Numbered from the stretch's first letter, positions 1 through 14,044 are shown. The stretch: DNA of 32,000 nt from Ruminococcus albus 7 = DSM 20455 (GCF_000179635.2 NC_014833.1:1080001-1112000); one strand, 5' to 3'. Program-made: numbers and translations. Notes: generated by a model from the sequence alone, not told the origin.

Positions 1-2
1 GC

Positions 3-3000
3 ATGAAGGAATCTGCAGGCAGAGATGGTATAGCGAGGGAGTACGAAACACCATCGGCTATGCATGGGGTCGTTGATTCTATCATAAAGAATATGCAGTC
101 TGTATCAGAAGAACTGGCTGCTATACCCGTAAATGCGGAAGCTACAGTTATCGGCAACAATGCTTACATCAGCGGTGACGGTTATCCCGACAATGCTGTG
201 CTGGTAGTTGACGGTGATAAGATAGCTCCCTATGTTGCTGAGAGCGGTAAGCTCCATATTGAGCTGAAGGGTGAGCAGATGGTCATATTCAACTTTGATG
301 AACTGACCGAAGCAAGGATAGACGAATTCAACATCAAGAGAGCTGAGGATAATGATTATCAGATTTCTACAACACCTTCAAACGAGAATACTCTCGAACA
401 CGGCAAGAACTACTGGCTGGATCAGAACGCTACCAGATATGTGGTATGGAACCTGAAGTCAGTCAAGGCTCTTGATATCAACAAGGCAACAGGTATATTC
501 CTTATACCCGATGATGATTCTGTTACACGTATCAAGGGTACAAGCTCGGGCTGGCTGGAATCTGCAGGCTATGTCAACAACCCTGACGGTGAGTGGCACT
601 TCCTGTACACAGACCTGCCGAGAAATACCACTGTGATCTCTGTAGATAAGAAAGATATCACAGGAGAGGCAGAGGTAAAGGGCGCTCAGCTGCGCATAAC
701 CACTGCTGAAGGTGAACCTGTATTCTCATGGGAATCCGACGGTAATACACACGAACTCAGACTTGCACCCGGCGATTATGTGCTGGAAGAAACAGGCAAC
801 GAGTTTGAAGCTGATGACGGTACCATATATAAGGTAATACCTTCAAAGGTAAGCTTTACTGTAAAGGCTGATGCAGATCAGGAATCCTACGGCTGCACAG
901 TTGAGAACGTAAAGGGCACTCAGCGTGCTGCTGACAGTGATTCGGACACAGGATATTATCTGTATAACGGCAGCAAGCAGCTGTTCACAGTATGTGATGC
1001 TGAGAGAGTATCTACCACAAAGGTAACTATCAACAAGCTTGATATAACAGGTGCTGAAGAACTGAACGGCGCAGTGCTGACCATAAAGGACAGCAAGGGC
1101 AGAACAGTAACAGGTACACCATGGACTTCTGCTAAGGGCAAGAAGCTTGAGGTCGAGCTTGCAGACGGTACATACACCCTGACCGAGACAGGCGACATGA
1201 TCACTGATTCGGAAGGAAACGAGTACGAAGTAATTGACAGCACACTCACCTTCAAGGTTGAGGACGGAAAGGTCACTACAGTAAAGAATGATACTGTAGA
1301 TGACGGTGTGAGCAGCTATTACGACGTTGACAGCTTTAACAATACTATCACTGTCAACGATGCTATGAAGCCTGCCGCAGCACCTGCTAAGGTCACTATA
1401 ACCAAGACCGATATCACAGGTGAAAAGGAGATCATAGGTGCTATACTGACCATTGTGGATCAGAACGGCAATACTGTTGAGGGAACACCCTGGACTACCC
1501 GCAGGAACAACAACAAGCTGGAGCTTGAACTTGCTGAGGGTACTTACACACTGACCGAAACACAGGGCAACAACCATATCGTTGACGAAGATGGTAATGA
1601 GTATGAAGTGATCGAGAGCTCACTGGTATTCAAGATCGAGGACGGCAAGGTGACCGAGGTCATCAACGATACAAGCAGAGACAACGGCGAAGGCTTCTTC
1701 AACGTTAACAGTGATACCAACGATATCATTATCAACGATGCTATGAAGTCCAACGACATAGTTACTGCAAAGGTCAAGATAGGCAAGACCGATATCACAG
1801 GTGAGAATGAGGTCGAGAACGCAAGGCTCAGCCTTTCCGTAAAGGGACTTTCCTATGATATGATCCAGACTATCATTGATAGTAATGAGGGTAATGGCCT
1901 GAAGAACTGGACTACAGCTCAGAACGGCGAGATCTTCACAATGAGCTGGGTATCCGGCAATAAGGCAGCGAACATCAAGGGTCTTGTTCCTGCAACTTAC
2001 ACACTTACCGAAACAGGTGACGCATTCGAGTATAACGGTGTTACCTATGAGGTGCTTGATTCTGAGGTAGTATTTGTTGTCAATGAGAGCGGAAAGATCG
2101 TTTACAGATCAGTACCTGCTCCATCTGATGAGAGAGTTCCTGCGAATTCCACAAGAAGCTATGCTAAGGCAAGCGGTACTACCATAACGATATGTGATGC
2201 TGCCAGAACAGATATCACAGTTTCCAAGAAGGACATAACCGCTTCTGAGGAAGTAAAGGGCGCACATCTTGTTATTGCGAACCGCGTCGGCGATGTCATC
2301 GAGGAATGGGATTCAAACGGCACAGATCACATTGTCAAGGGTCTGGCAAACGGCACTTACACACTGACCGAAACAGCTGTTGATGCTGAACAGGCAGGCG
2401 CTGAGTACAAGATCATTGATTCTGTAGTTACCTTTACTGTACTTAACGGCAAGATAACTGATGTATCAAGCAGTGTACTTGCTGACAAGGCAGAGAACGG
2501 TTCTGAGGACGGTTTTGTTCTTTGCGACAAGGACAGCAACACCATAACCGTATGCGATGCAAAGAAGACCACCAAGGTAATAATCAACAAGTTCGACATA
2601 ACAGGCAAGGAAGAACTGGACGGCGCAGTGCTGACCATCAAGGACAGCGAGAACAGAACCGTAACAGGCACTCCCTGGACATCACAGAAGGGCAAGAAGC
2701 TTGAAGTTGAACTTGAAAACGGCACATATACTCTGACCGAAACAGGTGACAAGATCACCGATGCAGAGGGCAACGAGTATGAAGTTATCGACAGCACTCT
2801 GACCTTCAAGGTAGAGGACGGCAAGGTAACAGTTGTTGAAAACAACACAAACAGCAACAATGGTGAAGGCTTCTATGCAGTAGATAGCGATACTAATACT
2901 ATCACAGTAAATGATGCAAAGAAGACCACCAAGGTAATCATCAACAAGTTCGACATAACAGGCAAGGAAGAACTGGACGGCGCAGTGCTGACTATAAAGG

Positions 3001-6000
3001 ACAGCGAGGGCAGGACAGTAACAGGTACTCCCTGGACATCACAGAAGGGCAAGAAGCTTGAAGTTGAACTTGAAAACGGCACATATACTCTGACCGAAAC
3101 AGGTGATAAGATCACCGATGCAGAGGGCAACGAGTATGAAGTTATCGACAGCACTCTGACCTTCAAGGTTGAGGACGGCAAGGTAACAGTTGTTGAAAAC
3201 AACACAAACAGCAACAATGGTGAAGGCTTCTATGCTGTAGATAGCGATACTAATACTATCACCGTCAACGATGCTAAGAAGACCACCAAGGTAATAATCA
3301 ACAAGTTTGACATAACAGGCAAGGAAGAACTGGACGGCGCAGTGCTGACCATAAAGGACAGCGAGGGCAGGACAGTAACAGGTACTCCCTGGACTTCCGC
3401 TAAGAATAAGAAGCTTGAAGTTGAACTTGAAAACGGCACATATACTCTGACCGAAACAGGTGACAAGATCACCGATGCAGAGGGCAACGAGTATGAAGTT
3501 ATCGACAGCACTCTGACCTTCAAGGTAGAGAATGGCAAGGTAACAGTTGTTGAGAACAATACAAATTCCAACAGCGGTGAGGGCTTCTATGCAGTAGATA
3601 GCGATACTAATACTATCACAGTAAATGATGCAAAGAAGACCACCAAGGTAATAATCAACAAGTTCGATATCACAGGCAAGGAAGAACTGGACGGCGCAGT
3701 GCTGACTATAAAGGACAGCAAGGGCAGAACAGTAACAGGTACTCCCTGGACTTCCGCTAAGAATAAGAAGCTTGAAGTTGAACTTGAAAACGGCACATAT
3801 ACTCTGACTGAAACAGGTGATAAGATCACCGATGCTGAGGGCAACGAGTATGAAGTTATCGACAGCACTCTGACCTTCAAGGTAGAGGACGGCAAGGTAA
3901 CAGTTGTTGAAAACAACACAAATTCCAACAATGGTGAAGGCTTCTATGCAGTAGATAGCGATACTAATACTATCACCGTCAACGATGCTAAGAAGACCAC
4001 CAAGGTAATAATCAACAAGTTCGATATAACAGGCAAGGAAGAACTGGACGGCGCAGTGCTGACTATCAAGGACAGCGAGGGCAGGACAGTAACAGGCACT
4101 CCCTGGACTTCTGCTAAGGGCAAGAAGCTTGAAGTTGAACTTGAAAACGGCACATATACTCTGACCGAAACAGGCGATAAGATCACCGATGCAGAGGGCA
4201 ACGAGTATGAAGTTATCGACAGCACTCTGACCTTCAAGGTTGAGAATGGCAAGGTAACAGTTGTTGAGAACAACACAAACAGCAACAATGGTGAAGGCTT
4301 CTATGCAGTAGATAGCGATACTAATACTATCACTGTAAATGATGCTAAGAAGACCACCAAGGTAATAATCAACAAGTTCGATATAACAGGCAAGGAAGAA
4401 CTGGACGGCGCAGTGCTGACCATAAAGGACAGCGAGGGCAGGACCGTAACAGGCACTCCATGGACTTCACAGAAGGGCAAGAAGCTTGAAGTTGAACTTG
4501 AAAACGGCACATATACTCTGACCGAAACAGGTGACAAGATCACCGATGCAGAGGGCAACGAGTATGAAGTTATCGACAGCACTCTGACCTTCAAGGTAGA
4601 GGACGGCAAGGTAACAGTTGTTGAAAACAACACAAACAGCAATAATGGTGAAGGCTTCTATGCAGTAGATAGCGATACTAATACTATCACAGTAAATGAT
4701 GCAAAGAAGACCACCAAGGTGATCATCAACAAGTTCGACATAACAGGCAAGGAAGAACTGGACGGCGCAGTGCTGACTATCAAGGACAGCGAGAACAGAA
4801 CCGTAACAGGCACTCCCTGGACTTCACAGAAGGGCAAGAAGCTTGAAGTTGAACTTGAAAACGGCACATATACTCTGACCGAAACAGGTGACAAGATCAC
4901 CGATGCAGAGGGCAACGAGTATGAAGTTATCGACAGCACTCTGACCTTCAAGGTTGAGAATGGCAAGGTAACAGTTGTTGAGAACAACACAAACAGCAAC
5001 AATGGCGAGGGCTTCTATGCAGTAGATAGCGATACTAATACTATCACCGTCAACGATGCTAAGAAGACCACCAAGGTAATAATCAACAAGTTCGATATCA
5101 CAGGCAAGGAAGAACTGGACGGCGCAGTGCTGACCATAAAGGACAGCGAGAACAGAACCGTAACAGGCACTCCCTGGACTTCTGCTAAGAATAAGAAGCT
5201 TGAAGTTGAACTTGAAAACGGCACATATACTCTGACCGAAACAGGTGACAAGATCACCGATGCAGAGGGCAACGAGTATGAAGTTATCGACAGCACTCTG
5301 ACCTTCAAGGTAGAGGACGGCAAGGTAACAGTTGTTGAAACAACACAAACAGCAATAATGGTGAAGGCTTCTATGCAGTAGATAGCGATACTAATACTAT
5401 CACAGTAAATGATGCAAAGAAGACCACCAAGGTGATCATCAACAAGTTCGACATAACAGGCAAGGAAGAACTGGACGGCGCAGTGCTGACCATAAAGGAC
5501 AGCGAGGGCAGGACAGTAACAGGCACTCCCTGGACATCACAGAAGGGCAAGAAGCTTGAAGTTGAACTTGAAAACGGCACATATACTCTGACCGAAACAG
5601 GTGATAAGATCACCGATGCAGAGGGCAACGAGTATGAAGTTATCGACAGCACTCTGACCTTCAAGGTAGAGGACGGCAAGGTAACAGTTGTTGAAAACAA
5701 CACAAACAGCAATAATGGTGAAGGCTTCTATGCAGTAGATAGCGATACTAATACTATCACCGTCAACGATGCAAAGAAGACCACCAAGGTAATAATCAAC
5801 AAGTTTGACATAACAGGCAAGGAAGAACTGGACGGCGCAGTGCTGACCATAAAGGACAGCGAGGGCAGGACAGTAACAGGTACTCCCTGGACTTCCGCTA
5901 AGAATAAGAAGCTTGAAGTTGAACTTGAAAACGGCACATATACTCTGACCGAAACAGGTGATAAGATCACCGATGCAGAGGGCAACGAGTATGAAGTTAT

Positions 6001-7882
6001 CGACAGCACTCTGACCTTCAAGGTAGAGGACGGCAAGGTAACAGTTGTTGAAAACAACACAAATTCCAACAGCGGTGAGGGCTTCTATGCAGTAGATAGC
6101 GATACTAATACTATCACCGTCAACGATGCAAAGAAGACCACCAAGGTAATAATCAACAAGTTTGACATAACAGGCAAGGAAGAATTGGACGGCGCAGTGC
6201 TGACCATAAAGGACAGCGAGGGCAGGACAGTAACAGGCACTCCCTGGACTTCACAGAAGGGCAAGAAGCTTGAAATTGAACTTGAAAACGGCACATATAC
6301 TCTGACCGAAACAGGTGATAAGATCACCGATGCAGAGGGCAACGAGTATGAAGTTATCGACAGCACTCTGACCTTCAAGGTAGAGGACGGCAAGGTAACA
6401 GTTGTTGAAAACAACACAAACAGCAACAATGGTGAGGGCTTCTATGCAGTAGATAGCGATACTAATACTATCACTGTAAATGATGCTAAGAAGTCTAATG
6501 TAACTATTACCAAAGTAGTTATCAAGAAGACTGATATCACAGGTACAGAGGAGATCACAGGTGCTGTACTGACAGTCAAGGATTCTGACGGCAATACTGT
6601 AACAGGTACACCTTGGACTTCCGGCAAGGACGGCAAGGAACTGGAACTCGAGCTGACAAACGGTACTTATACTCTTACTGAGGAAGCCGGCAACAATCAT
6701 ATAGTTGATGCGAACGGCAACGAGTACGAGGTGATTGAAAGCGTTCTGACTTTCAAGGTCGAAAACGGCATGGTAACTGAGGTCATCAATGATACTGAAA
6801 AGGGTAACGGCGAGGGCTTCTTTGAAGTTGATTCTGATAGCAATACTATCACGGTCAACGATGCTATGAAGTCCAATGAAACTACTACCATTGTAGTTAT
6901 CAAGAAGACCGATATCACAGGTACAGAGGAGATCACAGGTGCTGTACTGACAGTTAAGGATTCTGACGGCAATACCGTAACAGGTACACCTTGGACTTCC
7001 GGTAAGGACGGCAGTGAGCTGGAGCTCGAACTTGAAAACGGTACATATACTCTGACCGAAACAGGTGACACCATTACCGATGCAAACGGCAACGAGTATG
7101 AAGTTATCGACAGCACTCTCACCTTCAAGGTTGAGGACGGCAAGGTAACAGTTGTTGAAAACAACACTGATAAGGACAGCGGTGAAGGCTTCTTTGAGGT
7201 TGATTCCGATAGCAACACTATCACCGTCAACGATGCAAAGAAGACTGATAAGACTACTACCAGAGTTGTTATCAAGAAGACCGATATCACAGGTACAGAG
7301 GAGATCACAGGTGCTGTACTGACAGTTAAGGATTCTGACGGCAATACCGTAACAGGTACACCTTGGACTTCCGGTCAGGACGGCAGTGAGCTGGAGCTCG
7401 AACTGGAGAACGGCACATATACTCTGACCGAAACAGGTGATACCATTACCGATGCAAACGGCAACGAGTATGAAGTTATCGACAGTACTCTCACCTTCAT
7501 GGTAGAGGAAGGCAAGGTAACAGTTGTTGAAAACAGCACCGATAAGGACAGCGGCGAGGGCTTCTTCGAGGTCGATTCCGATAGCAACACTATCACTGTC
7601 AACGATGCAAAGAAGACTGATGACAGCTCGAAGCGTGATCGTGATGATGATTCTGCTACGGTAGAAGATAGTGACGATTCGGATTCCGCTTCTTCAAGCG
7701 GAGGTCCTGACAGCTCTAGCAGCAAGACTTCGACAACTTCGTCTTCAACATCTACCTCTACAAACACAAGCAACCCCAATACAGGTGCAAGAGTTCTGAT
7801 AAATACAGCAGAATTCGTAGCAGCGGTAGGTCTGGGCTTCCTGGCTATCAGACGCAAAAAGAACGACGAAGACGATCAGTGA
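3..7882 (+). pseudogene. Giant repetitive cell-wall-anchored surface protein or adhesin with about 19 SpaA/CnaB-like prealbumin-fold modules. The frame is broken by a 1-nt deletion, and the 5' end probably lies upstream of the window.
   Basis: ORFs 3..5381 and 5432..7882 lie in different + frames but encode the same 119-aa module (KKTTKVIINKFDITGKEELDGAVLTIKDS..GTYTLTETGD..EYEVIDSTLTFKVEDGKVTVVENN..TITVNDA). Other copies read GTTGTTGAAAACAACAC, whereas 5331-5346 reads GTTGTTGAAACAACAC (A4 to A3), which gives TAG at 5379-5381. The C-terminus has a D/S/T-rich stalk, an NPNTG sortase-type motif, a hydrophobic segment (VLINTAEFVAAVGLGFLAI) and an RRKK tail. No signal peptide is visible at the window start. 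Confidence 0.85.
2564..6489 (+). repeat. Tandem array of 11 near-identical 357-bp (119-aa) coding units inside the adhesin gene
   Basis: GAAGACCACCAAGGTAAT recurs at 2564, 2921, 3278, 3635, 3992, 4349, 4706 and 5063. It then recurs at 5419 (356-bp spacing caused by the deletion), 5776 and 6133. More diverged modules flank the array, about five upstream from ~640 and three downstream at ~6500, 6890 and 7260. Confidence 0.95.
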
Positions 7883-7901
7883 TCGCTGAGCCGATAAAAG
7901 A

Positions 7902-7930
7902 AGAGCCACCCGCGAGGGTGGTTCTTTTTT
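7902..7930 (+). terminator. Intrinsic terminator of the adhesin gene
   Basis: AGAGCCACCC-GCGA-GGGTGGTTCT forms a 10-bp stem with one G-U pair and is followed by TTTTTT. Confidence 0.8.
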
Positions 7931-7933
7931 GCC

Positions 7934-7976
7934 AAAAAATAACCGCAGCGATGTAATTTTCGCTGCGGTGTTTTTA
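7934..7976 (-). terminator. Intrinsic terminator downstream of the AIM24 gene, possibly bidirectional
   Basis: ACCGCAGCG (7942-7950) pairs with CGCTGCGGT (7961-7969). U-runs follow on both strands (TATTTTTT on the minus strand, GTTTTTATT on the plus strand). Confidence 0.75.
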
Positions 7977-7977
7977 T

Positions 7978-8721
7978 TCAGTAAATTCTTCTCTGTGCCG
8001 AAGGACGTGAGCCTGATGCTCTGCCGTCCATTGATACATCAACGCCAGAGGCGCGTTCTTCGGGCTGGATGATCACGGTAGCAGGTGCCTGCGGAGGCCA
8101 TTCAAACATATAGGATTCGCCTGAACTCTGACCGATGAAGTTTCTCCATGAGATATCCGTCCTCAGTGTGGGATCGGCACCTATCCAGCATACGGTTGCA
8201 TCGGGGTCTGCTTCAAGTGTTGCCCCGGACTGGATATTTGAAAGCACCAGCGGGTTGCCGTCCACAAGGATAGCTACATAGGATTCATTTCCCTGACCTG
8301 TAAGCGTAGATGTTGCAAGACCCTTCTGTGAGATGACACCCTGTCCGAGAAAACGTACACCATACTTGCATTCACGGGAGAAAGCAAGGATATTTTCGCT
8401 TTCGATAGATATGGTTTCGTTGGGTTCAAGCTTGTATACAACTACGTGCTGCTGGTCATTGGCATAATAGGTCACGCTGTCACCCTGGAATTCTACCTTC
8501 ATCAGCGGCAGGTTCTCACCGGTGATCCTACGGGTAAGCTGTCCCAGCAGCGCCTGCCCGAAGCCCTCCTGAGGACCAAGCATGACCTTGGTGAAGGTGT
8601 AGTTCTTGGGACCGATACATTCACCGCCTACGAACGCACCTGCCTTTGTATATATCAGATCTCCGCCGCCGCGGCAGGTTATTTTTAAACAAAGCTCGTT
8701 AACTGTTTCAAACATTACCAT
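7978..8721 (-). CDS. AIM24 family protein (DUF124/TIGR00266-like)
   Basis: This is a 247-aa ORF. It has AIM24-like sequence such as LKITCRGGGDLIYTKAGAFVGGE, ISIESENILAF and ATVIIQP. The RBS AAAGGAGAA lies 7 nt upstream of the ATG, and the gene starts 21 nt downstream of the TerD gene stop. Confidence 0.8.
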   Translation of the reverse strand: MVMFETVNELCLKITCRGGGDLIYTKAGAFVGGECIGPKNYTFTKVMLGPQEGFGQALLGQLTRRITGENLPLMKVEFQGDSVTYYANDQQHVVVYKLEPNETISIESENILAFSRECKYGVRFLGQGVISQKGLATSTLTGQGNESYVAILVDGNPLVLSNIQSGATLEADPDATVCWIGADPTLRTDISWRNFIGQSSGESYMFEWPPQAPATVIIQPEERASGVDVSMDGRASGSRPSAQRRIY

Positions 8722-8742
8722 GATGATATTCTCCTTTTTGTC

Positions 8743-10203
8743 CTATTCGAGCGCAACGCCGTACATTCCGCAGAACGCCGCGAGATCCAGATTTTTACCT
8801 GCGCCTACCGCATTGAATTTCCATTCGCCCTTGTAGCGGTAAAGCTCACCCAGCACCATAGCTGTTACGGATGAATAGCATTCGTCCATTCTGAAGGATG
8901 CTATCTCCCTGTTGGTGCGGCTGTCGAGTATACGCGCATAAAGGTTCTGCACCATACCGAAATTGAGAGCGTGTGCGGCAGCCTCGTATATAGTGACCGC
9001 AAGTGCTATCTTTGTGACCCTTGCATCGACACGGGTGAGATCCATGATGATAGCCGCGTCATCGGGTGAATTGGGATCATCCTTGAATATCTTATAGTGC
9101 AGCCCGTTATCAGGACTGTCGGGCTGACCATAGAAAATGAACCACTCATCTCCGAGGACTTTTCCGCTGTCGCCAAGCATGAAAGCGGAGGCATCCAGTT
9201 CAACTCTGCCATCCTTGACGTCCCAGCCAAAGCATATTTTAAGCTGTTCGGCAGGTCTGCCGTCTCTGTCCTTTATGGAATATTTCTGTCCTTTAGCAAG
9301 TCTGTCGCCTGTGGGGTCTACACGGTTGCGTTTTACAGTGGGACGATTATTTGCAGGATTTGAAGCATAGCTTGCATTTGCATTGTTCACAGGCTGCTGC
9401 ACCCCGAAATTGCCATGTCCTGTATTCGGAGTATTACGCACAGGTTCCCATGCGCCATGCTGCTGATTCTGCTGAGGGGGCTGAGGCTGTGAGAATATAG
9501 CATCCAGCGGGTCGCCGGATGGCTGATTATTGTAGCCATTGTTGGGATAGCCATTCTGCGGCTGATTGTTGTAGCCGTTGTTGGGATAGCCGTTCTGCGG
9601 CTGATTGTTGTAGCCGTTGTTGGGATAGCCATTCTGCGGCTGATTGTTGTAGCCGTTGTTGAGATAACCGTTCTGCGGCTGATTGTTGTAGCCGTTATTG
9701 GGATAGCCATTCTGCGGCTGATTGTTGTAGCCGTTATTGGGATAACCGTTCTGCGGCTGATTGTTGTAGCCGTTGTTGGGATAGCTGTTCTGTGGCTGAT
9801 TGTTGTAGCCGTTGTTGGGATAGCCGTTCTGCGGCTGATTGTTGTAGCCGTTATTGGGATAGCCGTTCTGCGGCTGATTCATATTTCTGTTTACGCCGCC
9901 GTTCGGGTGGTCGATTCTGTTTGCGCCGTTAAGACCGCCGTTTTGCATGGCGCTCATAGCTACAGCGCCTACTGCTGCGCCAGTGACGAAACCTCCCACG
10001 GAGCTTGGGTTGACAATACCGCTGCCGCCCATATTACCCATCATGGGATTGCCCATACCCATTCCGCCCATCATGGGACCGCGGTTCATGATACCCATAA
10101 GGTCATTTATCGGCGGCTGGATAAAGCTGTTTGTACCGTAGTTGTTCAAGAGGTCGTTTCTGCCGAGAGCGCCTCTGGTTATCATAGGAACTATCAGACT
10201 CAT
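8743..10203 (-). CDS. TerD-domain stress protein with an N-terminal Met/Gly-rich region, a Gly/Ala hydrophobic segment and a Q/N/Y/G/P oligopeptide-repeat region
   Basis: The C-terminal ~190 aa carries TerD hallmarks (KICFGWDV..VELDASAFML...WFIFYGQ...IIMDL..V...KIALAVTIYEA...NFG.V.N.YARILD....EIA.F......SVTAMVLGELYRYKGEWKFNAVG). The N-terminal half is low complexity. The RBS GGGAGG lies 7 nt upstream of the ATG. Confidence 0.85.
   Translation of the reverse strand: MSLIVPMITRGALGRNDLLNNYGTNSFIQPPINDLMGIMNRGPMMGGMGMGNPMMGNMGGSGIVNPSSVGGFVTGAAVGAVAMSAMQNGGLNGANRIDHPNGGVNRNMNQPQNGYPNNGYNNQPQNGYPNNGYNNQPQNSYPNNGYNNQPQNGYPNNGYNNQPQNGYPNNGYNNQPQNGYLNNGYNNQPQNGYPNNGYNNQPQNGYPNNGYNNQPQNGYPNNGYNNQPSGDPLDAIFSQPQPPQQNQQHGAWEPVRNTPNTGHGNFGVQQPVNNANASYASNPANNRPTVKRNRVDPTGDRLAKGQKYSIKDRDGRPAEQLKICFGWDVKDGRVELDASAFMLGDSGKVLGDEWFIFYGQPDSPDNGLHYKIFKDDPNSPDDAAIIMDLTRVDARVTKIALAVTIYEAAAHALNFGMVQNLYARILDSRTNREIASFRMDECYSSVTAMVLGELYRYKGEWKFNAVGAGKNLDLAAFCGMYGVALE
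9521..9880 (-). repeat. 39-bp tandem coding repeat with about 9.2 copies, encoding NNQPQNGYPNNGY
   Basis: CTGATTGTTGTAGCCGTTGTTGGGATAGCC(A/G)TTCTGCGG is reiterated head to tail, with differences mostly at third codon positions. Confidence 0.95.
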
Positions 10204-10269
10204 GCTGCTGCCTCCCTTTTCCTTTGTGTCTGCCCGCTGAGCGGGAACTGTGTTTGTTTATATACAGTC

Positions 10270-10298
10270 ATTATATCACAAATTATCTGATTTTGCAA
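10270..10298 (-). promoter_or_regulatory. Sigma-A type promoter for the TerD/AIM24 operon
   Basis: The minus strand reads TTGCAA, then a 17-nt spacer, then TATAAT preceded by TGA (an extended -10). The promoter lies about 65 nt upstream of the TerD ATG. Confidence 0.65.
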
Positions 10299-10513
10299 TA
10301 CTTGTGCTGAAAAAGTCAAATGTATATGTCATCAGTGGAGCCTCATGCAGGCGAAGAATGCAGATCATAGGGATAGTACCGGATTTTAAATAATTCTGCA
10401 AAGAAAATTCATAAACATTTGCAGTCTGCTTATCAAAATTGCCTATTATCAAGGATAATGAGTAGGTTAGTTAGTGTAAAATGGAGATTTTTTGCAGGAT
10501 TGTCGGTTTTCAC

Positions 10514-10542
10514 TTGCAAAATCACGAAAAATGGAGTACAAT
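10514..10542 (+). promoter_or_regulatory. Sigma-A type promoter for the aminotransferase gene
   Basis: TTGCAA, a 17-nt spacer, then TACAAT, located 55 nt upstream of the ATG. Confidence 0.6.
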
Positions 10543-10596
10543 ACAATAGTCGGAAATGACACTATTTTAGCTATATGATTTCGGAGGGTTCGGAAT

Positions 10597-11877
10597 ATGA
10601 AACTGACAGAAATGTCCCGTGAACAGCTTGTTGAGTTCAAGAATAAGGTACAGGCGGAGTATGACGGCTACAAGGCTCAGGGCCTTGCGCTGAATATGGC
10701 AAGAGGTAAGCCTGCAGCTGAGCAGCTTGATCTCACTGAGGGTCTGCTGACCTGTGTTTCAAAGAGCAGTGACTGCTTTGATGATGATGGTCTTGATTGC
10801 AGAAACTATGGCGGCCTTGACGGCATTCCTGCTGCAAAGAAGCTTTTTGCACCTATGCTGGGTGTAAGCGAGAAGGAGCTCATCGTGTTCGGTAACTCCA
10901 GTCTTAATATAATGTATGATACTATCGCAAAGTATCTCCTTTTCGGTGTTGACGAGGAGTCAAAGCCCTGGAGAGATCAGGGCAAGATCAAGTGGCTCTG
11001 CCCCGTTCCCGGATATGACAGACATTTCCTTATCTGCCAGAAGTTCGGTATCGAGATGATAAATATCCCTACCGATGAGAACGGTCCCGATATGGATATG
11101 ATCGAGAAGCTGGTCGCTGAGGATGACAGCATCAAGGGTATCTGGTGTGTACCTATGTACGCTAACCCCACAGGTGTTACTTACAGCGATGAAGTTGTAA
11201 AGAGATTTGCAAACATGAAGACAAAGGCTTCGGATTTCCGTATCTTCTGGGATAACGCTTACTGCGTACATCACCTGACAGATACTCCCGACAAGCTGCT
11301 GAACATTCTTGATGAGTGCAAGGCTGCAGGCAACCCCGAGAGAGTTGTAATGTTCGCATCTACTTCCAAGATCAGCTATGCCGGTGCAGGTGTGGCTATC
11401 ATGGGTGCAAGTGAAGCTAATATCAAGTATATCCTCTCGCTGATGACAGTTCAGACCATCGGTCACGACAAGATCAATCAGCTCAGACACGTTAAGTTCT
11501 TCGGTGATTTTGAGGGACTTAAAGAGCACATGAAGAAGCACAAGGCGCTTATCGCTCCCCGTTTTGAGGTAGTACTGGATACCCTCGACAAGGAACTGGG
11601 CGAACTGGGCGTAGCTAAGTGGACAAAGCCCAACGGCGGTTACTTTGTAAGCTTTGATGCTATGAACGGTACTGCAAAGCGCATAGTTACTCTCTGCAAG
11701 GAAGCAGGCGTTGTACTGACAGGTGCAGGCGCAACATTCCCTTACGGCAAGGATCCCGATGATAAGAATATACGTGTAGCTCCCACATATCCCCCTGTTG
11801 AGGAGCTGAAGATAGCAGCTAAGCTGTTTACCGTATGTGTTAAGCTTGCAAGTGCTGAAAAGCTGCTTGCAGAATAA
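10597..11877 (+). CDS. PLP-dependent aminotransferase, class I/II fold
   Basis: This is a 426-aa ORF with RBS GGAGGG. It has a typical fold-type I layout including the candidate PLP-lysine context ASTSKISYAGAG. Substrate specificity cannot be read from the sequence. Confidence 0.8.
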   Translation: MKLTEMSREQLVEFKNKVQAEYDGYKAQGLALNMARGKPAAEQLDLTEGLLTCVSKSSDCFDDDGLDCRNYGGLDGIPAAKKLFAPMLGVSEKELIVFGNSSLNIMYDTIAKYLLFGVDEESKPWRDQGKIKWLCPVPGYDRHFLICQKFGIEMINIPTDENGPDMDMIEKLVAEDDSIKGIWCVPMYANPTGVTYSDEVVKRFANMKTKASDFRIFWDNAYCVHHLTDTPDKLLNILDECKAAGNPERVVMFASTSKISYAGAGVAIMGASEANIKYILSLMTVQTIGHDKINQLRHVKFFGDFEGLKEHMKKHKALIAPRFEVVLDTLDKELGELGVAKWTKPNGGYFVSFDAMNGTAKRIVTLCKEAGVVLTGAGATFPYGKDPDDKNIRVAPTYPPVEELKIAAKLFTVCVKLASAEKLLAE

Positions 11878-11925
11878 GCTTTCATCTCAGCCCCTTTGGG
11901 CTGACAAAATATACGATCATCAAAA

Positions 11926-11965
11926 ACACCTCCGATCGGCTATGGTCGGAGGTGTTTTGCGTTTT
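11926..11965 (+). terminator. Intrinsic terminator of the aminotransferase gene
   Basis: ACACCTCCGATC pairs with GGTCGGAGGTGT in a 12-bp stem with one G-U pair, followed by TTTTGCGTTTT. Confidence 0.8.
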
Positions 11966-12001
11966 ATCATAACAGTACTGTATTGATATCAGTAGTGGTC
12001 A

Positions 12002-12100
12002 GAAAAAAAGAAAACGACATATATCTCAGTATATTCATCATTTATGTTCACTGAAACAGCAGTGCTCACAGATGATGGATACAGAAATAGATATGTCGTT
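12002..12100 (-). terminator. Possible large-loop or branched terminator of the TSCPD-like gene
   Basis: On the minus strand AACGACATATCT pairs with AGATATATGTCGTT and is followed by TTTTCTTTTTTTC. The loop is about 60 nt and has its own small stem, so the structure is atypical. Confidence 0.35.
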
Positions 12101-12159
12101 TACTACAATTGTTCTGCTGTACATGATCCTCACTGCGCTATAAGGAGCGAGGAGGAACA

Positions 12160-12417
12160 TCAGGCATTTTCTTCCAGAGCTTTTTCAACTGCAATAGCAA
12201 GCTGATCTGCGCAGGAAGTTCCTCTTCCGCTGCAATCGTTGCCTTTGAGCAGACGAACGGCATCTTCGGGGGCAGCGCCCTCAAGCAGCTTGCCTATGGC
12301 TTTCAGATTGCCGTTGCAGCCGCCTACGAAGCTGACATCATGGAGCTTGCCATCCACGATATCAAAGGATATTTTTCTTGCACATACACCGTGAGGTGTA
12401 TAATCATAGGTAGCCAT
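12160..12417 (-). CDS. TSCPD/TIGR03905-like 4-Cys small protein
   Basis: This is an 85-aa product, MATYDYTPHGVCARKISFDIVDGKLHDVSFVGGCNGNLKAIGKLL..GNDCSGRGTSCADQL. The RBS AAGGAGGG lies upstream of the ATG at 12415-12417. The longer track ORF ending at 12489 has no RBS. Confidence 0.8.
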   Translation of the reverse strand: MATYDYTPHGVCARKISFDIVDGKLHDVSFVGGCNGNLKAIGKLLEGAAPEDAVRLLKGNDCSGRGTSCADQLAIAVEKALEENA

Positions 12418-12525
12418 ATTATCCCTCCTTGAAAAGCTACGGTCGTATGGTGGTCGCGAATATGACACGTCGGTACACCTGCGGCGCAATTAAGGCTTCG
12501 GAAGTATCCCTACAGGTCTGATAAT

Positions 12526-12554
12526 ATTATAACATATTTTTGGCAGGAAATCAA
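12526..12554 (-). promoter_or_regulatory. Sigma-A type promoter for the TSCPD-like gene
   Basis: The minus strand reads TTGATT, a 17-nt spacer, then TATAAT. This leaves a leader of about 100 nt. Confidence 0.55.
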
Positions 12555-12705
12555 CACTGCTATACCGACAGATATCGTTTAAGAAATAAAAAGTTTACAC
12601 ATTTTATGTTAAGCCATATAGCAGTTAAACTGCTTATGTTGTATACCAAACAGCACAGGGATACACTATGTTGAAAATATATGGCAGATATTAATAATAA
12701 TTATC

Positions 12706-12734
12706 TTTACATTTTGGGGAAAATGTGGTATAAT
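12706..12734 (+). promoter_or_regulatory. Sigma-A type promoter for the SGNH lipoprotein gene
   Basis: TTTACA, a 17-nt spacer, then TGG-TATAAT (an extended -10), located 50 nt upstream of the ATG. Confidence 0.65.
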
Positions 12735-12784
12735 GTCCACAAAGCGGAGAGGGGCTCCGCTGAGATGAAGGATATGGTGATAAT

Positions 12785-14044
12785 ATGAAAATAACTAAGA
12801 TCACAGCGCTGCTGACGGCACTTATAATGTCGGCAGGGGCAGCATCCTGCGGAGGAAAGCAGGATGACAGCAAGGCAGAGGTATCCTCGGCGGCGGTGAG
12901 CGGTGAAGAACAGGTGACAGAGAGTCAGCCTGAGAAACTGCCCGAAACAGACGAGGAGTGGGATGCTGCCATGATAAACAAGGCTATGACATCCTACGGC
13001 AACACCAAACAGATACGGGAAGTTATTGAAAAAGCACAGAGCGGCGAAGAAGTCACGATAGCGTATCTGGGCGGTTCAATAACTGAGGGTATATCTGCGG
13101 GCGCAGACCTTTGCTATGCAAAACTCAGCTATGAGCATTTTGCAGAGAAATTCGGTACAGGCGATAATGTAAAGTATGTAAACGCAGGCATAAGCGGCAC
13201 GCCATCTAAGCTTGGTATACTGCGTCTGCAGAGAGATGTGCTAGCCTATGACCCTGATATCGTGTTCATTGAATTTGCTGTGAATGACGGCGGTGATGCT
13301 GAATTTCAGAATGCTTATGAATCCATAGTAAAGACCCTGATGCAGAAGGGAATAGCCCCTGTTTTGCTGTTTTCGGTTACCGAGGATGATCATTCCGCAC
13401 AGGATTACATGAAGCAGATAGGTGAGGCTTACCGTCTGCCTATGATATCCTACTGCGATGCGCTGAGGTTCATGTTTGAAAACGGACGGATGACATGGAA
13501 GGATTTTTCAAACGATCAGTCGCACCCGAATACTGAGGGACACGCGCTTGTGGCAAGAATGATAGACCATTACTGGGATACTGTTATGGATATCGAGCCT
13601 GAGGGCGATGTGATAATGCCTTTTGAAGATGTATTTCATCCGCGTGAGATAGGTGCGGATATGCTGGAGAATGACAGGCTGACACCTATCGAAACGGGCA
13701 GCTGGACTATAGGCTCTGATACAGCACACTTCACAAACGGCTGGACCCATGACCCGGAGCTTGGAAACGAGCCTATAGTTTTCGAGGTCGAAGCGAAGTT
13801 CCTGTACCTTATATATAAAGAGGTCAGCGGAGGAAAGTTCGGTGATATGCACGTTCATATTACTCTTGACGGTGAGGAATATGCAGACCGTGATGTTACG
13901 GCGGTAACACCTGAGGGCTGGGGCGGACCCAACAGGTCGAATGTTGTAATGGAGCCTTCGCCTGCAAAATACAGGGTGGAGATATCAATGGCTTCAGGCA
14001 GTGAGGATAAGACAGCACAGCTGCTCGCGCTTGGTATAGTATAA
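12785..14044 (+). CDS. Lipoprotein, SGNH/GDSL-family hydrolase (esterase)
   Basis: There is a signal peptide with a lipobox (LIMSAGAASC). SGNH blocks are readable: block I YLGGSITEG, block III FAVNDG and block V DQSHPN. Confidence 0.8.
   Translation: MKITKITALLTALIMSAGAASCGGKQDDSKAEVSSAAVSGEEQVTESQPEKLPETDEEWDAAMINKAMTSYGNTKQIREVIEKAQSGEEVTIAYLGGSITEGISAGADLCYAKLSYEHFAEKFGTGDNVKYVNAGISGTPSKLGILRLQRDVLAYDPDIVFIEFAVNDGGDAEFQNAYESIVKTLMQKGIAPVLLFSVTEDDHSAQDYMKQIGEAYRLPMISYCDALRFMFENGRMTWKDFSNDQSHPNTEGHALVARMIDHYWDTVMDIEPEGDVIMPFEDVFHPREIGADMLENDRLTPIETGSWTIGSDTAHFTNGWTHDPELGNEPIVFEVEAKFLYLIYKEVSGGKFGDMHVHITLDGEEYADRDVTAVTPEGWGGPNRSNVVMEPSPAKYRVEISMASGSEDKTAQLLALGIV

What the first reader, a model, noticed from the sequence alone, without database searches (positions are those of the whole stretch)
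7978..10298. TerD-domain protein fused to a Sup35-like Q/N/Y/G oligopeptide-repeat region, in a two-gene operon with AIM24
The 486-aa protein has an ordinary C-terminal TerD fold. Its first ~290 aa consist of:
- A Met/Gly-rich stretch (MGGMGMGNPMMGNMGGSG).
- A Gly/Ala hydrophobic, glycine-zipper-like segment (VGGFVTGAAVGAVAMSAM).
- Nine tandem copies of NNQPQNGYPNNGY, encoded by an almost perfect 39-bp DNA repeat.
The composition and periodicity resemble the yeast Sup35 oligopeptide repeats (PQGGYQQYN) and the candidate prion domains described for some bacterial proteins such as Clostridium botulinum Rho. A self-assembling or phase-separating Ca-binding stress protein is therefore a testable idea. 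The 39-bp repeat should also be slippage-prone, predicting length polymorphism. An AIM24-family gene follows 21 nt downstream under the same promoter. I do not know a defined function for this TerD-AIM24 pairing.
Basis: partly seen in the sequence, partly recalled or inferred. Interest (0 to 1): 0.7.

Follow-up and report, generated by a model that had tools for sequence, protein, structure and literature searches.

The report
TerD–AIM24 pair with variable disordered repeats
A rumen bacterium (Ruminococcus albus) encodes a two-gene stress-protein pair in which the TerD partner carries a long, disordered, asparagine/glutamine/tyrosine-rich repeat region whose copy number varies between strains; the gene pairing was already known, but this architecture, which is widespread in related gut bacteria, has not been described and is a testable candidate for a self-assembling bacterial protein.

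Summary
On the minus strand of a Ruminococcus albus window, a 486-aa TerD protein (8743..10203) and a 247-aa AIM24 protein (7978..8721) form one promoter-to-terminator unit with a 21-nt gap. The TerD protein carries nine 13-aa NNQPQNGYPNNGY repeats encoded by a 39-bp array.

- **Disorder and composition:** residues 1-290 are predicted disordered. The repeat region has 44 Q/N per 80 aa and no charged residue over 124 aa.
- **Copy number:** it varies (9, 6 or 5) between alleles with 99-100% identical flanks.
- **Pairing:** TerD-AIM24 adjacency is near-obligate (78 of 79 evaluable loci; 10/10 in the other direction). It was already noted by Anantharaman et al. 2012.
- **Against:** this allele scores below the cut-off in a PAPA-like test, the repeat sequence is not conserved, and short-spacer orthologues lack it.
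- **TerD domain:** it is not "ordinary", because the canonical Ca2+ loop is degenerate.

New here:
- A conserved N-terminal peptide motif defines a large TerD subfamily.
- Long spacers in that subfamily are usually Q/N-rich, uncharged and contain aromatic residues.

Best reading: an adaptor-like TerD with a docking peptide and a self-associating low-complexity tether. This is a new variant of a known kind. Interest 0.5.

The parts
10270..10298 (-). Promoter-like site: TTGCAA, 17 nt, TG-extended TATAAT
   Evidence: 10 of 12 matches with TG before the -10 hexamer. It is the best site in the region. It is a consensus match only and is not shown to be functional.
10211..10216 (-). Ribosome-binding site (GGGAGG) of the TerD gene
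   Evidence: Read directly from the sequence. It lies 7 nt upstream of the ATG at 10203.
8743..10203 (-). TerD-family gene, 486 aa
   Evidence: It is 100% identical to a protein named 'TerD family protein [Ruminococcus albus]' on a 3.69-Mb contig.
10135..10203 (-). Conserved N-terminal head motif, aa 1-23 (MSLIVPMITRGALGRNDLLNNYG). Family consensus: x-[FL]-[DN]-[IV]-P-M-x-T-x-G-A-[LM]-[DS]-x-[ND]-S-[LI]
   Evidence: P is invariant, M 91%, L/I 92% over 101 distinct windows. An HMM of the motif scores above all reversed controls in 64 of 140 further TerD representative clusters. AlphaFold2 predicts a short helix at aa 15-21, the only N-terminal block with pLDDT of about 68.
10078..10119 (-). Second, weaker copy of the motif, aa 29-42 (QPPINDLMGIMNRG)
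   Evidence: Read by eye. Many family members show a tandem '[PA]-[LIM]-[DS]-x-x-[ST]-[LI]-x-x-[LI]-N' pair. This part is inference.
10018..10077 (-). Met/Gly-rich low-complexity stretch, aa 43-62
   Evidence: (block aa 42-66): 36% G, 28% M, no charged residue. Its length and sequence vary between close relatives.
9925..10005 (-). Gly/Ala hydrophobic segment, aa 67-93, with GxxxGxxxG at aa 71-79
   Evidence: mean Kyte-Doolittle hydropathy over 19 residues is 1.5. It is conserved in the R. albus clade and a few others (L013, L015, L016, L032/33) and absent from most family members. AlphaFold2 does not predict a helix there (pLDDT 32-41).
9532..9882 (-). Nine tandem 39-bp / 13-aa repeats (NNQPQNGYPNNGY), aa 108-224
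   Evidence: Composition is 53% Q/N, 15% each of G, P and Y, and no charged residue. Differences between copies are 9 synonymous against 2 non-synonymous. Copy number is polymorphic.
9511..9531 (-). Partial tenth repeat (NNQPSGD)
9301..9510 (-). Q/P-rich linker, aa 232-301, ending in a basic patch (KRNRVDPTGDR)
   Evidence: Blocks such as DPLDAIF, WEPVRN, NFGVQQPV and ASYASNP are conserved among close relatives. A basic patch precedes the TerD domain across the whole family.
8761..9300 (-). TerD beta-sandwich domain, aa 302-481
   Evidence: Pfam PF02342, E 8.5e-53. phmmer against 2KXT gives E 4.8e-31. AlphaFold2 pLDDT is above 90. Foldseek target-normalised TM-scores are 0.76-0.82 to 9A6R_B, 3IBZ and 2KXT.
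9052..9099 (-). Degenerate counterpart of the canonical TerD Ca2+ loop, aa 369-384 (HYKIFKDDPNSPDDAA, against HTGDNRTGEGDGDDES in Klebsiella TerD)
   Evidence: alignments. (PMC8779313) lists the Ca1 site as residues 40, 41, 42, 78, 79, 89 and the Ca2 site as 29, 82, 84, 88. The positions of D78, N79 and E89 are not conserved here.
8731..8735 (-). Ribosome-binding site (AGGAG) of the AIM24 gene, inside the 21-nt spacer
   Evidence: Read directly from the sequence.
7978..8721 (-). AIM24-family gene, 247 aa
   Evidence: Pfam PF01987, 56.9 bits. It is 68-94% identical to 120 listed cluster representatives. The AlphaFold2 model matches 1PG6 (E 2.7e-8) and 1YOX.
7942..7969 (-). Intrinsic-terminator-like hairpin (10-bp stem followed by a T-run). 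It is bidirectional and shared with the convergent surface-protein gene

Best explanation
The locus is a self-contained two-gene operon. It encodes a lineage-specific version of the TerD-AIM24 pair that comparative genomics had already linked to Ter-type stress-response systems. The two proteins most likely act as one complex.

Proposed mechanism:
1. AIM24 is the strongly constrained core of the pair (68-94% identical across the group).
2. The TerD partner is an adaptor built from four parts:
   - a conserved N-terminal peptide motif of about 23 aa that folds on binding a partner, most plausibly AIM24 (inferred);
   - a lineage-specific Met/Gly-rich and glycine-zipper hydrophobic segment that may contact the membrane or promote oligomerisation (inferred);
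   - a long, intrinsically disordered, uncharged, Q/N-rich spacer with regularly spaced tyrosines, here 9 x NNQPQNGYPNNGY;
   - a TerD beta-sandwich whose canonical Ca2+ site has decayed.
3. The spacer acts as a multivalent, weakly self-associating 'sticker-and-spacer' tether. It sets the reach and the clustering tendency of the complex.
4. Spacer length is reset frequently by slippage or unequal recombination of the near-perfect 39-bp repeats.

What is shown: the gene pair and its near-obligate linkage, the predicted disorder, the composition, the copy-number polymorphism, the head motif, and the degenerate Ca2+ loop.

What is inferred: what the head motif binds, any self-association or condensation, and the physiological role in stress or envelope function.
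For: Operon anatomy.

Linkage:
- 480 species-representative genomes encode this AIM24 subfamily.
- In 78 of 79 evaluable loci a TerD gene lies directly upstream on the same strand.
- 10 of 10 head-motif or low-complexity TerDs examined are followed by AIM24, including distant representatives.
- No other gene family is consistently linked.
- One truly plain TerD sits in a TerD tandem array without AIM24.

Head motif: it is near-universal and N-terminal, and it is the only N-terminal element to which AlphaFold2 gives some confidence.

Disorder: pLDDT is below 50 over most of residues 1-290.

Spacer properties:
- Of 33 AIM24-linked TerDs with spacers of at least 60 aa, 30 have at least 25% Q/N, 26 have at least 6% aromatic residues, 28 have at most 6% charged residues, and 23 meet all three.
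- Unrelated repeat units have expanded independently in many lineages.
- Differences between copies are 9 synonymous against 2 non-synonymous.

Copy-number polymorphism.

Adaptor rather than Ca2+ sensor: the Ca2+ loop is degenerate here, but it is intact in all 14 plain TerD paralogues found downstream of AIM24.

Coupling of the two proteins: a G/M/L-rich tail sits on AIM24 in lineages whose TerD lacks the M/G-rich and hydrophobic segment.
Against: - No experiment and no complex model supports binding of the head motif to AIM24. The tools allowed single chains only.
- AlphaFold2 confidence for the head motif is modest (about 68).
- Twenty-one of 54 orthologues have short, charged spacers. The low-complexity region is therefore dispensable for the core function.
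- The PAPA-like score of this allele is below the cut-off.
- Two prolines per 13-mer disfavour ordered aggregation.
- The excess of synonymous differences is only marginal once shared sites are counted once (5 against 2 distinct sites; my estimate is p of about 0.05).
- Low-complexity composition can be maintained by the slippage process itself, without selection.
- Some copy-number differences come from short-read metagenome assemblies, which can collapse a 351-bp array.
- The 'tail swap' between TerD and AIM24 is mutually exclusive but not complementary in every lineage.
Confidence: 0.5

Rival explanations
1. Passive spacer or neutral low-complexity insert. The repeat region is only a flexible linker of tolerated, drifting length between the head motif and the TerD domain. 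It is created and resized by replication slippage and has no self-association function. Its composition reflects what slippage happened to amplify.
For: - Spacer length ranges from about 18 to about 345 aa, and repeat units are unrelated between lineages.
- Short, charged spacers occur in 21 of 54 orthologues.
- Copy number ranges from 1 to 10 within one allele family.
- The DNA repeats are 93% identical, which implies recent expansion.
- The PAPA-like score of this allele is below the cut-off.
Against: - Long spacers converge on one unusual composition: Q/N-rich, at most 6% charged, with periodic Y or F. This holds in 23 of 33 cases even though the repeat units are unrelated.
- Typical passive bacterial linkers are P/T/S/E/K-rich. 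This statement rests on general knowledge.
- Differences between copies are mostly synonymous, 9 against 2.
- The repeat GC content (0.50) matches the gene (0.51), so the N/Q codons are not a base-composition by-product.
Confidence: 0.3
2. Bona fide prion or amyloid switch. The N-terminal region converts into a self-propagating amyloid that heritably alters TerD-AIM24 activity. Repeat number tunes the switching frequency, as in Sup35 or PrP.
For: - 44 Q/N per 80 aa, a 124-aa stretch with no charged residue, and tandem oligopeptide repeats made of N, Q, G, Y and P.
- Predicted disorder.
- The adjacent M/G-rich and glycine-zipper segment has the highest PAPA-like propensity in the protein, 0.12-0.13.
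- Homologues of the R. flavefaciens type score 0.16-0.18, and a sister allele in which Q replaces P scores 0.07.
Against: - This allele's repeat region scores about 0.00, below the 0.05 cut-off, and the unit mean is -0.03 because of two prolines.
- Propensity is not conserved across orthologues. It ranges from -0.22 to 0.18.
- The region is absent from many orthologues.
- Computational prion-domain candidates in bacteria are common, and few have been validated. This statement rests on general knowledge.
Confidence: 0.08
3. Membrane-anchored stalk. The Gly/Ala segment (aa 67-93) is a transmembrane or re-entrant anchor, and the repeat region is a stalk that holds the TerD domain at a set distance from the membrane.
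For: - Mean Kyte-Doolittle hydropathy over 19 residues is 1.5, and a GxxxGxxxG motif is present.
- The segment is conserved in the R. albus clade and a few other lineages.
- Ter systems and yeast Aim24 are associated with membranes.
Against: - The hydropathy is borderline.
- No helix is predicted there, and pLDDT is 32-41.
- There is no signal peptide and no clear charge asymmetry on either side of the segment.
- Most family members lack the segment altogether.
- If it spanned the membrane, either the head motif or the TerD domain would lie outside the cell, away from the cytoplasmic AIM24.
Confidence: 0.12

Closest known systems
TerD-AIM24 gene neighbourhood of Ter-dependent stress-response systems (Anantharaman, Iyer & Aravind 2012, as cited in PMC5822837)
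   Same: A TerD-domain gene lies directly next to an AIM24-domain gene, and the earlier work proposed that the two proteins interact. One related locus (L086) also carries the Ter-linked PRTase/TRSP/PELOTA and C-C-bond-lyase genes.
   Different: - In R. albus the pair stands alone. The window contains no TerC, TerB, TelA, TerY or biosynthetic genes.
- The TerD has a 300-aa disordered N-terminus with a conserved head motif, and its Ca2+ loop has decayed.
- The primary paper could not be read here. I cannot exclude that it mentions N-terminal extensions.
Klebsiella pneumoniae TerD (PDB 2KXT) and Streptomyces coelicolor TerD (3IBZ)
   Same: Same beta-sandwich fold: E 4.8e-31 by sequence and target-normalised TM-score 0.76-0.81 by structure. 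The first acidic strand motif is kept (ELDASAF against DLDASAF).
   Different: - Those proteins are single-domain, about 190 aa, with an intact GDNxTGxGxGDDE Ca2+ loop.
- Here the loop reads KIFKDDPNSPDDA.
- Here the domain is preceded by about 300 disordered residues.
Sup35 N-domain oligopeptide repeats (PQGGYQQYN) and other yeast-type prion domains
   Same: Tandem oligopeptide repeats built from the same five residues (N, Q, G, Y, P). The region has no charged residues, is predicted disordered, lies N-terminal to a folded functional domain, and varies in repeat number.
   Different: - The unit is 13 aa rather than 9, and it is N-rich rather than Q-rich.
- There are two prolines per unit.
- The PAPA-like score is below the cut-off, whereas the Sup35 control scores 0.10.
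- There is no evidence of amyloid or of heritable states.
- The Sup35 sequence and the propensity table were recalled from memory.
Bacterial candidate prion domains with experimental support (Clostridium botulinum Rho; Campylobacter hominis SSB). Recalled from memory, not checked here
   Same: A Q/N-rich disordered segment attached to a conserved bacterial protein, present in only some lineages of the family.
   Different: - Those segments are not near-perfect tandem repeats and have been shown to form amyloid.
- Here nothing has been tested.
- Here the segment is coupled to a conserved docking-type motif and to a dedicated partner gene.
Low-complexity domains with distributed tyrosines that drive phase separation (FUS-type 'stickers and spacers'; for example PMC5704491, listed)
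   Same: Aromatic residues are regularly spaced (Y at positions 8 and 13 of each 13-mer) in a polar, uncharged G/Q/N/P context. The same pattern recurs in 23 of 33 long-spacer orthologues.
   Different: - Those are eukaryotic RNA-binding proteins.
- Here there is no RNA-binding domain and no arginine-rich partner region.
- Condensation here is an inference only.
Eukaryotic proteins that combine a G/Y/P/Q-rich N-terminus with a Ca2+- or ligand-binding domain (annexin A7/A11; Dictyostelium cAMP-binding protein CABP1, itself a TerD-domain protein). This is a lead from memory only
   Same: A low-complexity aromatic and polar N-terminal region lies in front of a folded binding domain. CABP1 would share the TerD domain itself.
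   Different: This could not be verified. A literature search for CABP1, TerD and Dictyostelium together returned nothing, and no sequence was compared.

Membership tests
TerD domain family (Pfam PF02342) | Significant match to the TerD profile over the whole domain | tested here: met
   E 8.5e-53, 179 bits against a cut-off of 25.3. Profile positions 5-187 of 187 are matched.
TerD domain family (Pfam PF02342) | TerD beta-sandwich fold | tested here: met
   pLDDT above 90 for aa 295-486. Foldseek E values are 3.8e-18 to 4.9e-15, with target-normalised TM-scores of 0.76-0.82 to 9A6R_B, 3IBZ and 2KXT.
Canonical Ca2+-binding TerD (Klebsiella TerD type) | Intact GDNxTGxGxGDDE loop supplying Ca1 ligands D78, N79 and E89 and Ca2 residues 82, 84 and 88 | tested here: not met
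   The loop aligns to YKIFK-DDPNSPDDAA. The positions of D78, N79 and E89 are replaced, and only D88 is kept. The loop is intact in all 14 plain TerD paralogues downstream of AIM24 in related loci.
Canonical Ca2+-binding TerD (Klebsiella TerD type) | Acidic D-x-D in the DLDASA strand (Ca1 residues 40-42) | tested here: met
   ELDASAF, a conservative D-to-E change at position 40.
Canonical Ca2+-binding TerD (Klebsiella TerD type) | Measured Ca2+ binding | not testable with these tools
   This needs ITC, NMR or a 45Ca overlay on the purified domain.
AIM24 family (Pfam PF01987) | Profile match above the gathering score | tested here: met
   56.9 bits against 25.7, with positions 17-204 of 205 matched.
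AIM24 family (Pfam PF01987) | Fold shared with the solved AIM24/DUF124 proteins 1PG6 and 1YOX | tested here: met
   Foldseek E 2.7e-8 (1PG6) and 1.3e-5 (1YOX), with TM-scores of 0.55-0.70. The model is of only moderate confidence (mean pLDDT 63, pTM 0.66). Sequence-only searches of the PDB find nothing significant.
TIGR00266 (NCBIfam hypothetical equivalog within AIM24) | Score above the curated cut-off | tested here: not met
   16.2 bits against a cut-off of 96.6. This protein belongs to a distinct AIM24 subfamily.
Ter-dependent stress-response system (as described by Anantharaman et al. 2012) | TerD gene adjacent to an AIM24 gene | tested here: met
Ter-dependent stress-response system (as described by Anantharaman et al. 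2012) | Presence in the neighbourhood of other Ter components (TerC, TerB, TelA, TerY-kinase-phosphatase triad, or PRTase/ATP-grasp/lyase biosynthetic genes) | tested here: not met
   none is present in this window. Such genes are seen only in some related loci (L086; kinase-like and PP2C-like ORFs in 12 loci, identified by eye only).
Ter-dependent stress-response system (as described by Anantharaman et al. 2012) | Tellurite, phage or colicin resistance phenotype | not testable with these tools
   This needs genetics in R. albus or a heterologous host.
Yeast-type prion domain (Sup35-like) | At least 30 Q/N residues in an 80-residue window | tested here: met
   44 per 80, starting at aa 109.
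Yeast-type prion domain (Sup35-like) | Predicted disorder and depletion of charged residues | tested here: met
   no D, E, K or R in aa 107-230, and pLDDT below 50.
Yeast-type prion domain (Sup35-like) | Composition-based prion propensity above the cut-off (PAPA at least 0.05) | tested here: not met
   -0.001 for the disordered region. The Sup35 control scores 0.099, the sister allele P0002 scores 0.073 and the R. flavefaciens type scores 0.17. This was an approximate re-implementation with a table recalled from memory, so the result is close to inconclusive.
Yeast-type prion domain (Sup35-like) | PLAAC hidden-Markov-model call | not tested
   PLAAC and its parameters were not available.
Yeast-type prion domain (Sup35-like) | Self-propagating amyloid and heritable conversion | not testable with these tools
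   This needs C-DAG, SDD-AGE, seeding and reporter bistability assays.
Known anti-phage defence systems (PADLOC-DB v2) | Match of either protein to a defence-system model | tested here: not met
   no family matched either protein. No relative was found on viral contigs.

The most novel reading that the evidence does not exclude
The N-terminus is a bipartite bacterial prion-like module. An aggregation-prone Met/Gly and glycine-zipper nucleating segment is followed by oligopeptide repeats, which parallels the Q/N-rich core plus oligopeptide repeats of Sup35 and the octarepeats plus hydrophobic tract of PrP. Slippage-driven changes in repeat number would tune the frequency of a heritable or stress-triggered assembly switch. 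That switch would sequester or activate the TerD-AIM24 complex, giving rumen Ruminococcus populations a bet-hedging stress response.
Probability: 0.08. Interest if true: 0.85.

Novelty: new variant of a known kind. Interest (0 to 1): 0.5.

Why it matters
TerD and AIM24 are widespread proteins whose molecular function is still unknown. Their linkage has been noted, but no mechanism has been worked out.

What this analysis adds:
- It defines a large, undescribed subfamily. Relatives of this AIM24 are found in 480 species-representative genomes. The head motif is found in at least 64 further TerD clusters at 50% identity.
- In this subfamily the TerD partner has three distinctive features:
  - a conserved N-terminal peptide motif;
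  - a hypervariable low-complexity spacer that is usually prion-like in composition;
  - often, a decayed Ca2+ site.
- The partner AIM24, by contrast, is among the most constrained proteins of the locus.

Concrete handles for experiments:
- a candidate peptide-protein interface;
- a natural allelic series of repeat numbers, from 1 to 10;
- natural 'no-spacer' orthologues that can serve as controls.

If the spacer drives assembly, this would be a genetically tractable example of a tunable low-complexity domain in a bacterial stress system. If it does not, the family is still a clean case for studying how slippage-prone linkers evolve.

Tried and rejected
- **NCBIfam and PADLOC** gave nothing useful: no model for the TerD protein, only a sub-threshold TIGR00266 hit for AIM24, and no defence-system model.
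- **Rfam** scan of the operon and its leader at E up to 1 gave only a chance sRNA-like hit on the terminator, so there is no riboswitch.
- **Viral contigs** hold no relative of this AIM24.
- **Sequence search of the PDB** with the AIM24 profile found nothing significant. The family fold had to be confirmed through a predicted model.
- **Portable N-terminal module?** Searching the 5.8-billion-protein set with aa 1-107 returned only three fragments of the same TerD family. There is no evidence that the module occurs on other proteins.
- **'Module swap' idea.** I considered that the G/M-rich segment moved between the TerD N-terminus and the AIM24 C-terminus. The two placements are mutually exclusive. 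However, many lineages have neither, so I keep this only as weak support for coupling.
- **Hydrophobic segment as a conserved membrane anchor.** Rejected as a family feature because most members lack it and AlphaFold2 predicts no helix there.
- **Literature.** The primary paper by Anantharaman et al. 2012 is not held. Searches for TerD with DUF124, for 'TerD domain' with prion, and for CABP1 with TerD and Dictyostelium gave nothing relevant. The last search, on TerD with disorder and phase-separation terms, listed no TerD paper among its 12 rows.
- **Tool errors.** A wrong reading frame was corrected. A 'plain' TerD chosen as a negative control (P0245) proved to be a truncated gene call of another low-complexity TerD.

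Full report
**1. What is in the sequence**

The window comes from Ruminococcus albus. The 486-aa protein is 100% identical to a 'TerD family protein [Ruminococcus albus]' carried on a 3.69-Mb contig.

Gene layout on the minus strand:
- ORF 8743..10203 encodes the 486-aa protein. Its only Pfam domain is TerD, at aa 302-481 (E 8.5e-53).
- ORF 7978..8721 encodes a 247-aa AIM24-family protein (56.9 bits against a cut-off of 25.7).
- The two ORFs are 21 nt apart, with an AGGAG ribosome-binding site between them.
- The best promoter-like site in the region is at 10298..10270: TTGCAA, 17 nt, TG-extended TATAAT.
- A strong hairpin terminator follows AIM24 at 7969..7942.
- No Rfam family matches the leader.

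The repeats:
- Tandem Repeats Finder reports a 39-bp unit, 9.2 copies, 93% matches.
- At protein level there are nine NNQPQNGYPNNGY units at aa 108-224, plus a partial tenth.

**2. The N-terminus, region by region**

From:
- aa 1-23: a peptide that proves to be conserved across the family (the 'head motif'). A weaker second copy lies at aa 29-42.
- aa 43-62: a Met/Gly-rich stretch.
- aa 67-93: a Gly/Ala hydrophobic segment with a literal GxxxGxxxG. Mean hydropathy over 19 residues is 1.5.
- aa 108-224: the repeats. They are 53% Q/N and 15% each of G, P and Y.
- aa 232-301: a Q/P-rich linker ending in a basic patch.

Further properties:
- The stretch aa 107-230 contains no charged residue.
- The best 80-residue window holds 44 Q/N.
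- AlphaFold2, run with a 59-sequence family alignment, gives pLDDT below 50 for almost all of residues 1-290. The one exception is a short helix at aa 15-21 inside the head motif (block mean about 68). The TerD domain is confident, with pLDDT above 90.

**3. The TerD domain has the fold but not the canonical Ca2+ site**

- It matches Klebsiella TerD (2KXT, E 4.8e-31) and Streptomyces TerD (3IBZ) by sequence.
- It matches them by fold, with target-normalised TM-scores of 0.76-0.82.
- PMC8779313 lists the Klebsiella Ca2+ ligands. Ca1 uses residues 40, 41, 42, 78, 79 and 89. Ca2 uses 29, 82, 84 and 88.
- In my numbering of the 2KXT alignment, these residues fall in DLD(40-42) and in the loop GDNRTGEGDGDDE.
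- In R. albus the first element is kept as ELD. The loop, however, aligns to KIFK-DDPNSPDDA, so the positions of D78, N79 and E89 are lost.
- Across related loci the loop is intact in all 14 plain TerD paralogues that follow AIM24.
- It is near-canonical (GDSxxGxGxGDDE) in one subgroup of upstream TerDs.
- It is degenerate or deleted in the R. albus clade and in most other Ruminococcus upstream TerDs.

'Ordinary Ca-binding TerD' is therefore not supported for this protein. Whether it still binds Ca2+ needs measurement.

**4. The pairing with AIM24 is real, near-obligate and already known**

From AIM24 towards TerD:
- An alignment of AIM24 homologues (68-94% identical to the query over 120 listed clusters) recovered relatives in 480 species-representative genomes.
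- The best 80 loci were fetched.
- In 78 of them a TerD ORF lies directly upstream on the same strand.
- Of the other two, one is cut by a contig end, and one (L031) is a true exception with an unrelated upstream gene.

From TerD towards AIM24:
- 10 of 10 head-motif or low-complexity TerDs, including distant 50%-identity representatives, are directly followed by AIM24.
- One truly plain TerD sits in a TerD tandem array without AIM24.

Other context:
- Clustering of all flanking ORFs shows no third universally linked gene. Subsets of loci add a plain TerD downstream, a sigma-factor-like gene downstream, or kinase-like and PP2C-like genes upstream.
- The association itself is not new. [quoted passage not shown] I could not read the primary paper.
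- The AIM24 model (moderate confidence) matches only the two structural-genomics AIM24 proteins, 1PG6 and 1YOX. The fold gives no functional lead.
- This protein fails the TIGR00266 cut-off, so it represents a separate AIM24 subfamily.

**5. A conserved head motif defines a large TerD subfamily**

- Nearly all AIM24-linked TerDs start with x-[FL]-[DN]-[IV]-P-M-x-T-x-G-A-[LM]-[DS]-x-[ND]-S-[LI].
- The motif is usually at residue 4-5. In the R. flavefaciens type it follows a 40-57-aa Gly-rich pre-extension.
- An exhaustive phmmer search with the TerD domain alone found 3,928 representatives at E up to 1e-3.
- Of the best 150 representatives, 118 have an N-terminal extension of at least 30 aa.
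- A head-motif HMM trained only on the genome loci scores above every reversed-sequence control in 64 of 140 new representatives.
- A search with aa 1-107 alone found only fragments of the same family, so the module is not known on other proteins.

A short conserved peptide inside a disordered region, strictly co-occurring with one partner gene, is the classical signature of a docking motif. I infer that it binds AIM24, but I could not model the complex.

**6. The low-complexity spacer: what is conserved and what is not**

Not conserved:
- The repeat sequence is not conserved. Different lineages carry unrelated units with periods of 6-15 aa. Examples:
  - NNQPQNGYPNNGY
  - NQPQNNYNNGGGY
  - NNQNNNGYNNNSGF
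  - QPQNTYQ
  - NFNQPAQ
  - QNQGQVYSTPRP
- 21 of 54 orthologues have short spacers (under 60 aa) that are charged, with a median of 17% charged residues.

Conserved as a property:
- Among the 33 spacers of at least 60 aa, 30 have at least 25% Q/N.
- 26 have at least 6% aromatic residues.
- 28 have at most 6% charged residues.
- 23 meet all three criteria.

This convergence on an uncharged, polar, periodically aromatic composition is what 'sticker-and-spacer' low-complexity domains look like. It is not what typical passive linkers look like.

Within the R. albus array:
- Differences between copies are 9 synonymous against 2 non-synonymous. Counting shared sites once gives 5 against 2 distinct sites, which is marginal.
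- The repeat GC content (0.50) equals that of the gene (0.51).

**7. Prion propensity**

- By the Q/N-count criterion the region qualifies, with 44 per 80.
- I re-implemented PAPA.
- Scores from that test:

| Sequence | Score |
|---|---|
| Sup35 control | 0.099 |
| Cut-off | 0.05 |
| This allele's disordered region | about 0.00 |
| This allele's repeat unit (mean; two prolines) | -0.03 |
| Sister allele with Q in place of P | 0.073 |
| R. flavefaciens-type and some other homologues | 0.16-0.18 |
| Short-spacer orthologues | down to -0.22 |

- The highest local propensity in the R. albus protein (0.12-0.13) lies in the Met/Gly and glycine-zipper segment, not in the repeats.
- A true prion therefore remains possible but is not the favoured reading for this allele. 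The better candidates for experiments are the R. flavefaciens FD-1-type proteins.

**8. Copy-number polymorphism**

- Proteins whose flanks are 99-100% identical to the window protein carry 9, 6 or 5 copies.
- The allele family of R. albus strain 8 (flanks 79-81% identical to the window protein) shows 10, 9, 5, 2 and 1 copies.
- Isolate genomes KH2T6, AR67 and strain 8 carry 9, 10 and 10 copies.
- Caveat: several of these sequences come from short-read metagenome assemblies, which can collapse a 351-bp array.

**9. Verdict**

The finding is a real and well-delimited operon.
- The region is disordered, prion-like in composition and polymorphic.
- The pairing with AIM24 is non-random.

It needs these corrections:
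- The pairing was already known.
- The Ca2+ site is degenerate.
- The composition-based prion score of this allele is sub-threshold.

The best-supported model is an adaptor-type TerD that is tethered to, or clustered with, a strongly conserved AIM24 through a docking peptide and a tunable, weakly self-associating low-complexity spacer. I put confidence in this model at about 0.5.

The main rivals are:
- a functionally passive, slippage-driven linker (about 0.3);
- a membrane stalk (about 0.12);
- a true prion switch (about 0.08).

I classify the finding as a new variant of a known kind. It has moderate interest because it turns two poorly understood protein families into a testable system.

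Noticed in passing
window 3..7882 (+); tandem array 2555..7617: A very large surface-protein gene is built from 14 copies of a 357-bp repeat encoding SpaA/prealbumin-like domains. It ends in a Ser/Thr-rich stalk and a hydrophobic anchor. It is split into two ORFs (3..5381 and 5432..7882) by a frameshift inside the repeat array. The cause could be a pseudogene, a sequencing or assembly error in the repeats, or phase variation.
   Followed up: partly
window 15678..19880 (-); tandem array 16442..18895: A 1400-aa protein with dockerin, fn3-like and five SH3_3 domains contains 4.9 copies of a 498-bp tandem repeat at 94% identity. It is probably a cellulosome-associated protein with recently amplified modules.
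   Followed up: no
AIM24 homologues P0169-P0240; loci L065-L085: Many AIM24 orthologues (274-305 aa) carry a C-terminal Gly/Met/Leu-rich tail (...LGNMLGGGSGN..GGGGLGGLGGMLGL) that the R. albus protein lacks. Those lineages have TerD partners without the Met/Gly-rich and hydrophobic segment. A similar low-complexity element therefore sits on either partner, but never on both.
   Followed up: partly
L065, L068-L070, L072, L074-L077, L079, L081, L082, L084, L085: These loci have a third gene directly after AIM24: a plain TerD of 196-199 aa with a fully canonical GDNRTGEGxGDDE Ca2+ loop. In the same loci the upstream head-motif TerD keeps a near-canonical loop.
   Followed up: partly
L001 (672-kb metagenome contig), 1..12900: An extended cluster runs as follows: P-type cation (Ca2+-type) ATPase, DUF4379, an unknown 483-aa protein, head-motif TerD, an unknown 455-aa protein inserted between TerD and AIM24, AIM24, and then two more TerD genes.
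   Followed up: no
L086, 8596..11320 (-): A PRTase_2/TRSP/StiP/PELOTA_1 fusion protein and a C-C_Bond_Lyase gene lie about 1.5 kb from a TerD-AIM24 pair. As I recall, these families belong to the Ter-linked 'nucleoside-like metabolite' gene set.
   Followed up: no
About 12 loci including L038 (2940..5212), and 17 loci including L049 (7810..8394): In 12 loci, ORFs that look like a protein kinase and a PP2C phosphatase lie upstream of TerD-AIM24. In 17 loci, a sigma-70/ECF-like ORF follows AIM24. These assignments were made by eye from the sequences and were not checked against profiles.
   Followed up: no
L034 and L040: Two contigs labelled as Alistipes (Bacteroidota) metagenome-assembled genomes carry a Ruminococcus-type TerD-AIM24 pair whose AIM24 is 72-75% identical to the query. 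Binning contamination is more likely than horizontal transfer.
   Followed up: no
L025, L028, L035, L041; P0041-P0079: R. flavefaciens-type orthologues place a 40-57-aa Gly/Asn/Tyr-rich pre-extension in front of the head motif. Their spacer consists of proline-free N-rich repeats (NNQNNNGYNNNSGF). These gave the highest PAPA-like scores, 0.16-0.17, among the R. flavefaciens-type proteins tested.
   Followed up: partly
window 7942..7969: A single perfect 10-bp-stem hairpin with T-runs on both sides serves as a bidirectional terminator for the convergent AIM24 gene and the surface-protein gene.
   Followed up: no
PDB 9A6R chain B: The best structural match of the TerD domain is an integrative model of a GlpD-SCP2 complex, in which a TerD-type 'stress response protein SCP2' is paired with glycerol-3-phosphate dehydrogenase. 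This is a possible lead to membrane-proximal partners of TerD proteins.
   Followed up: no
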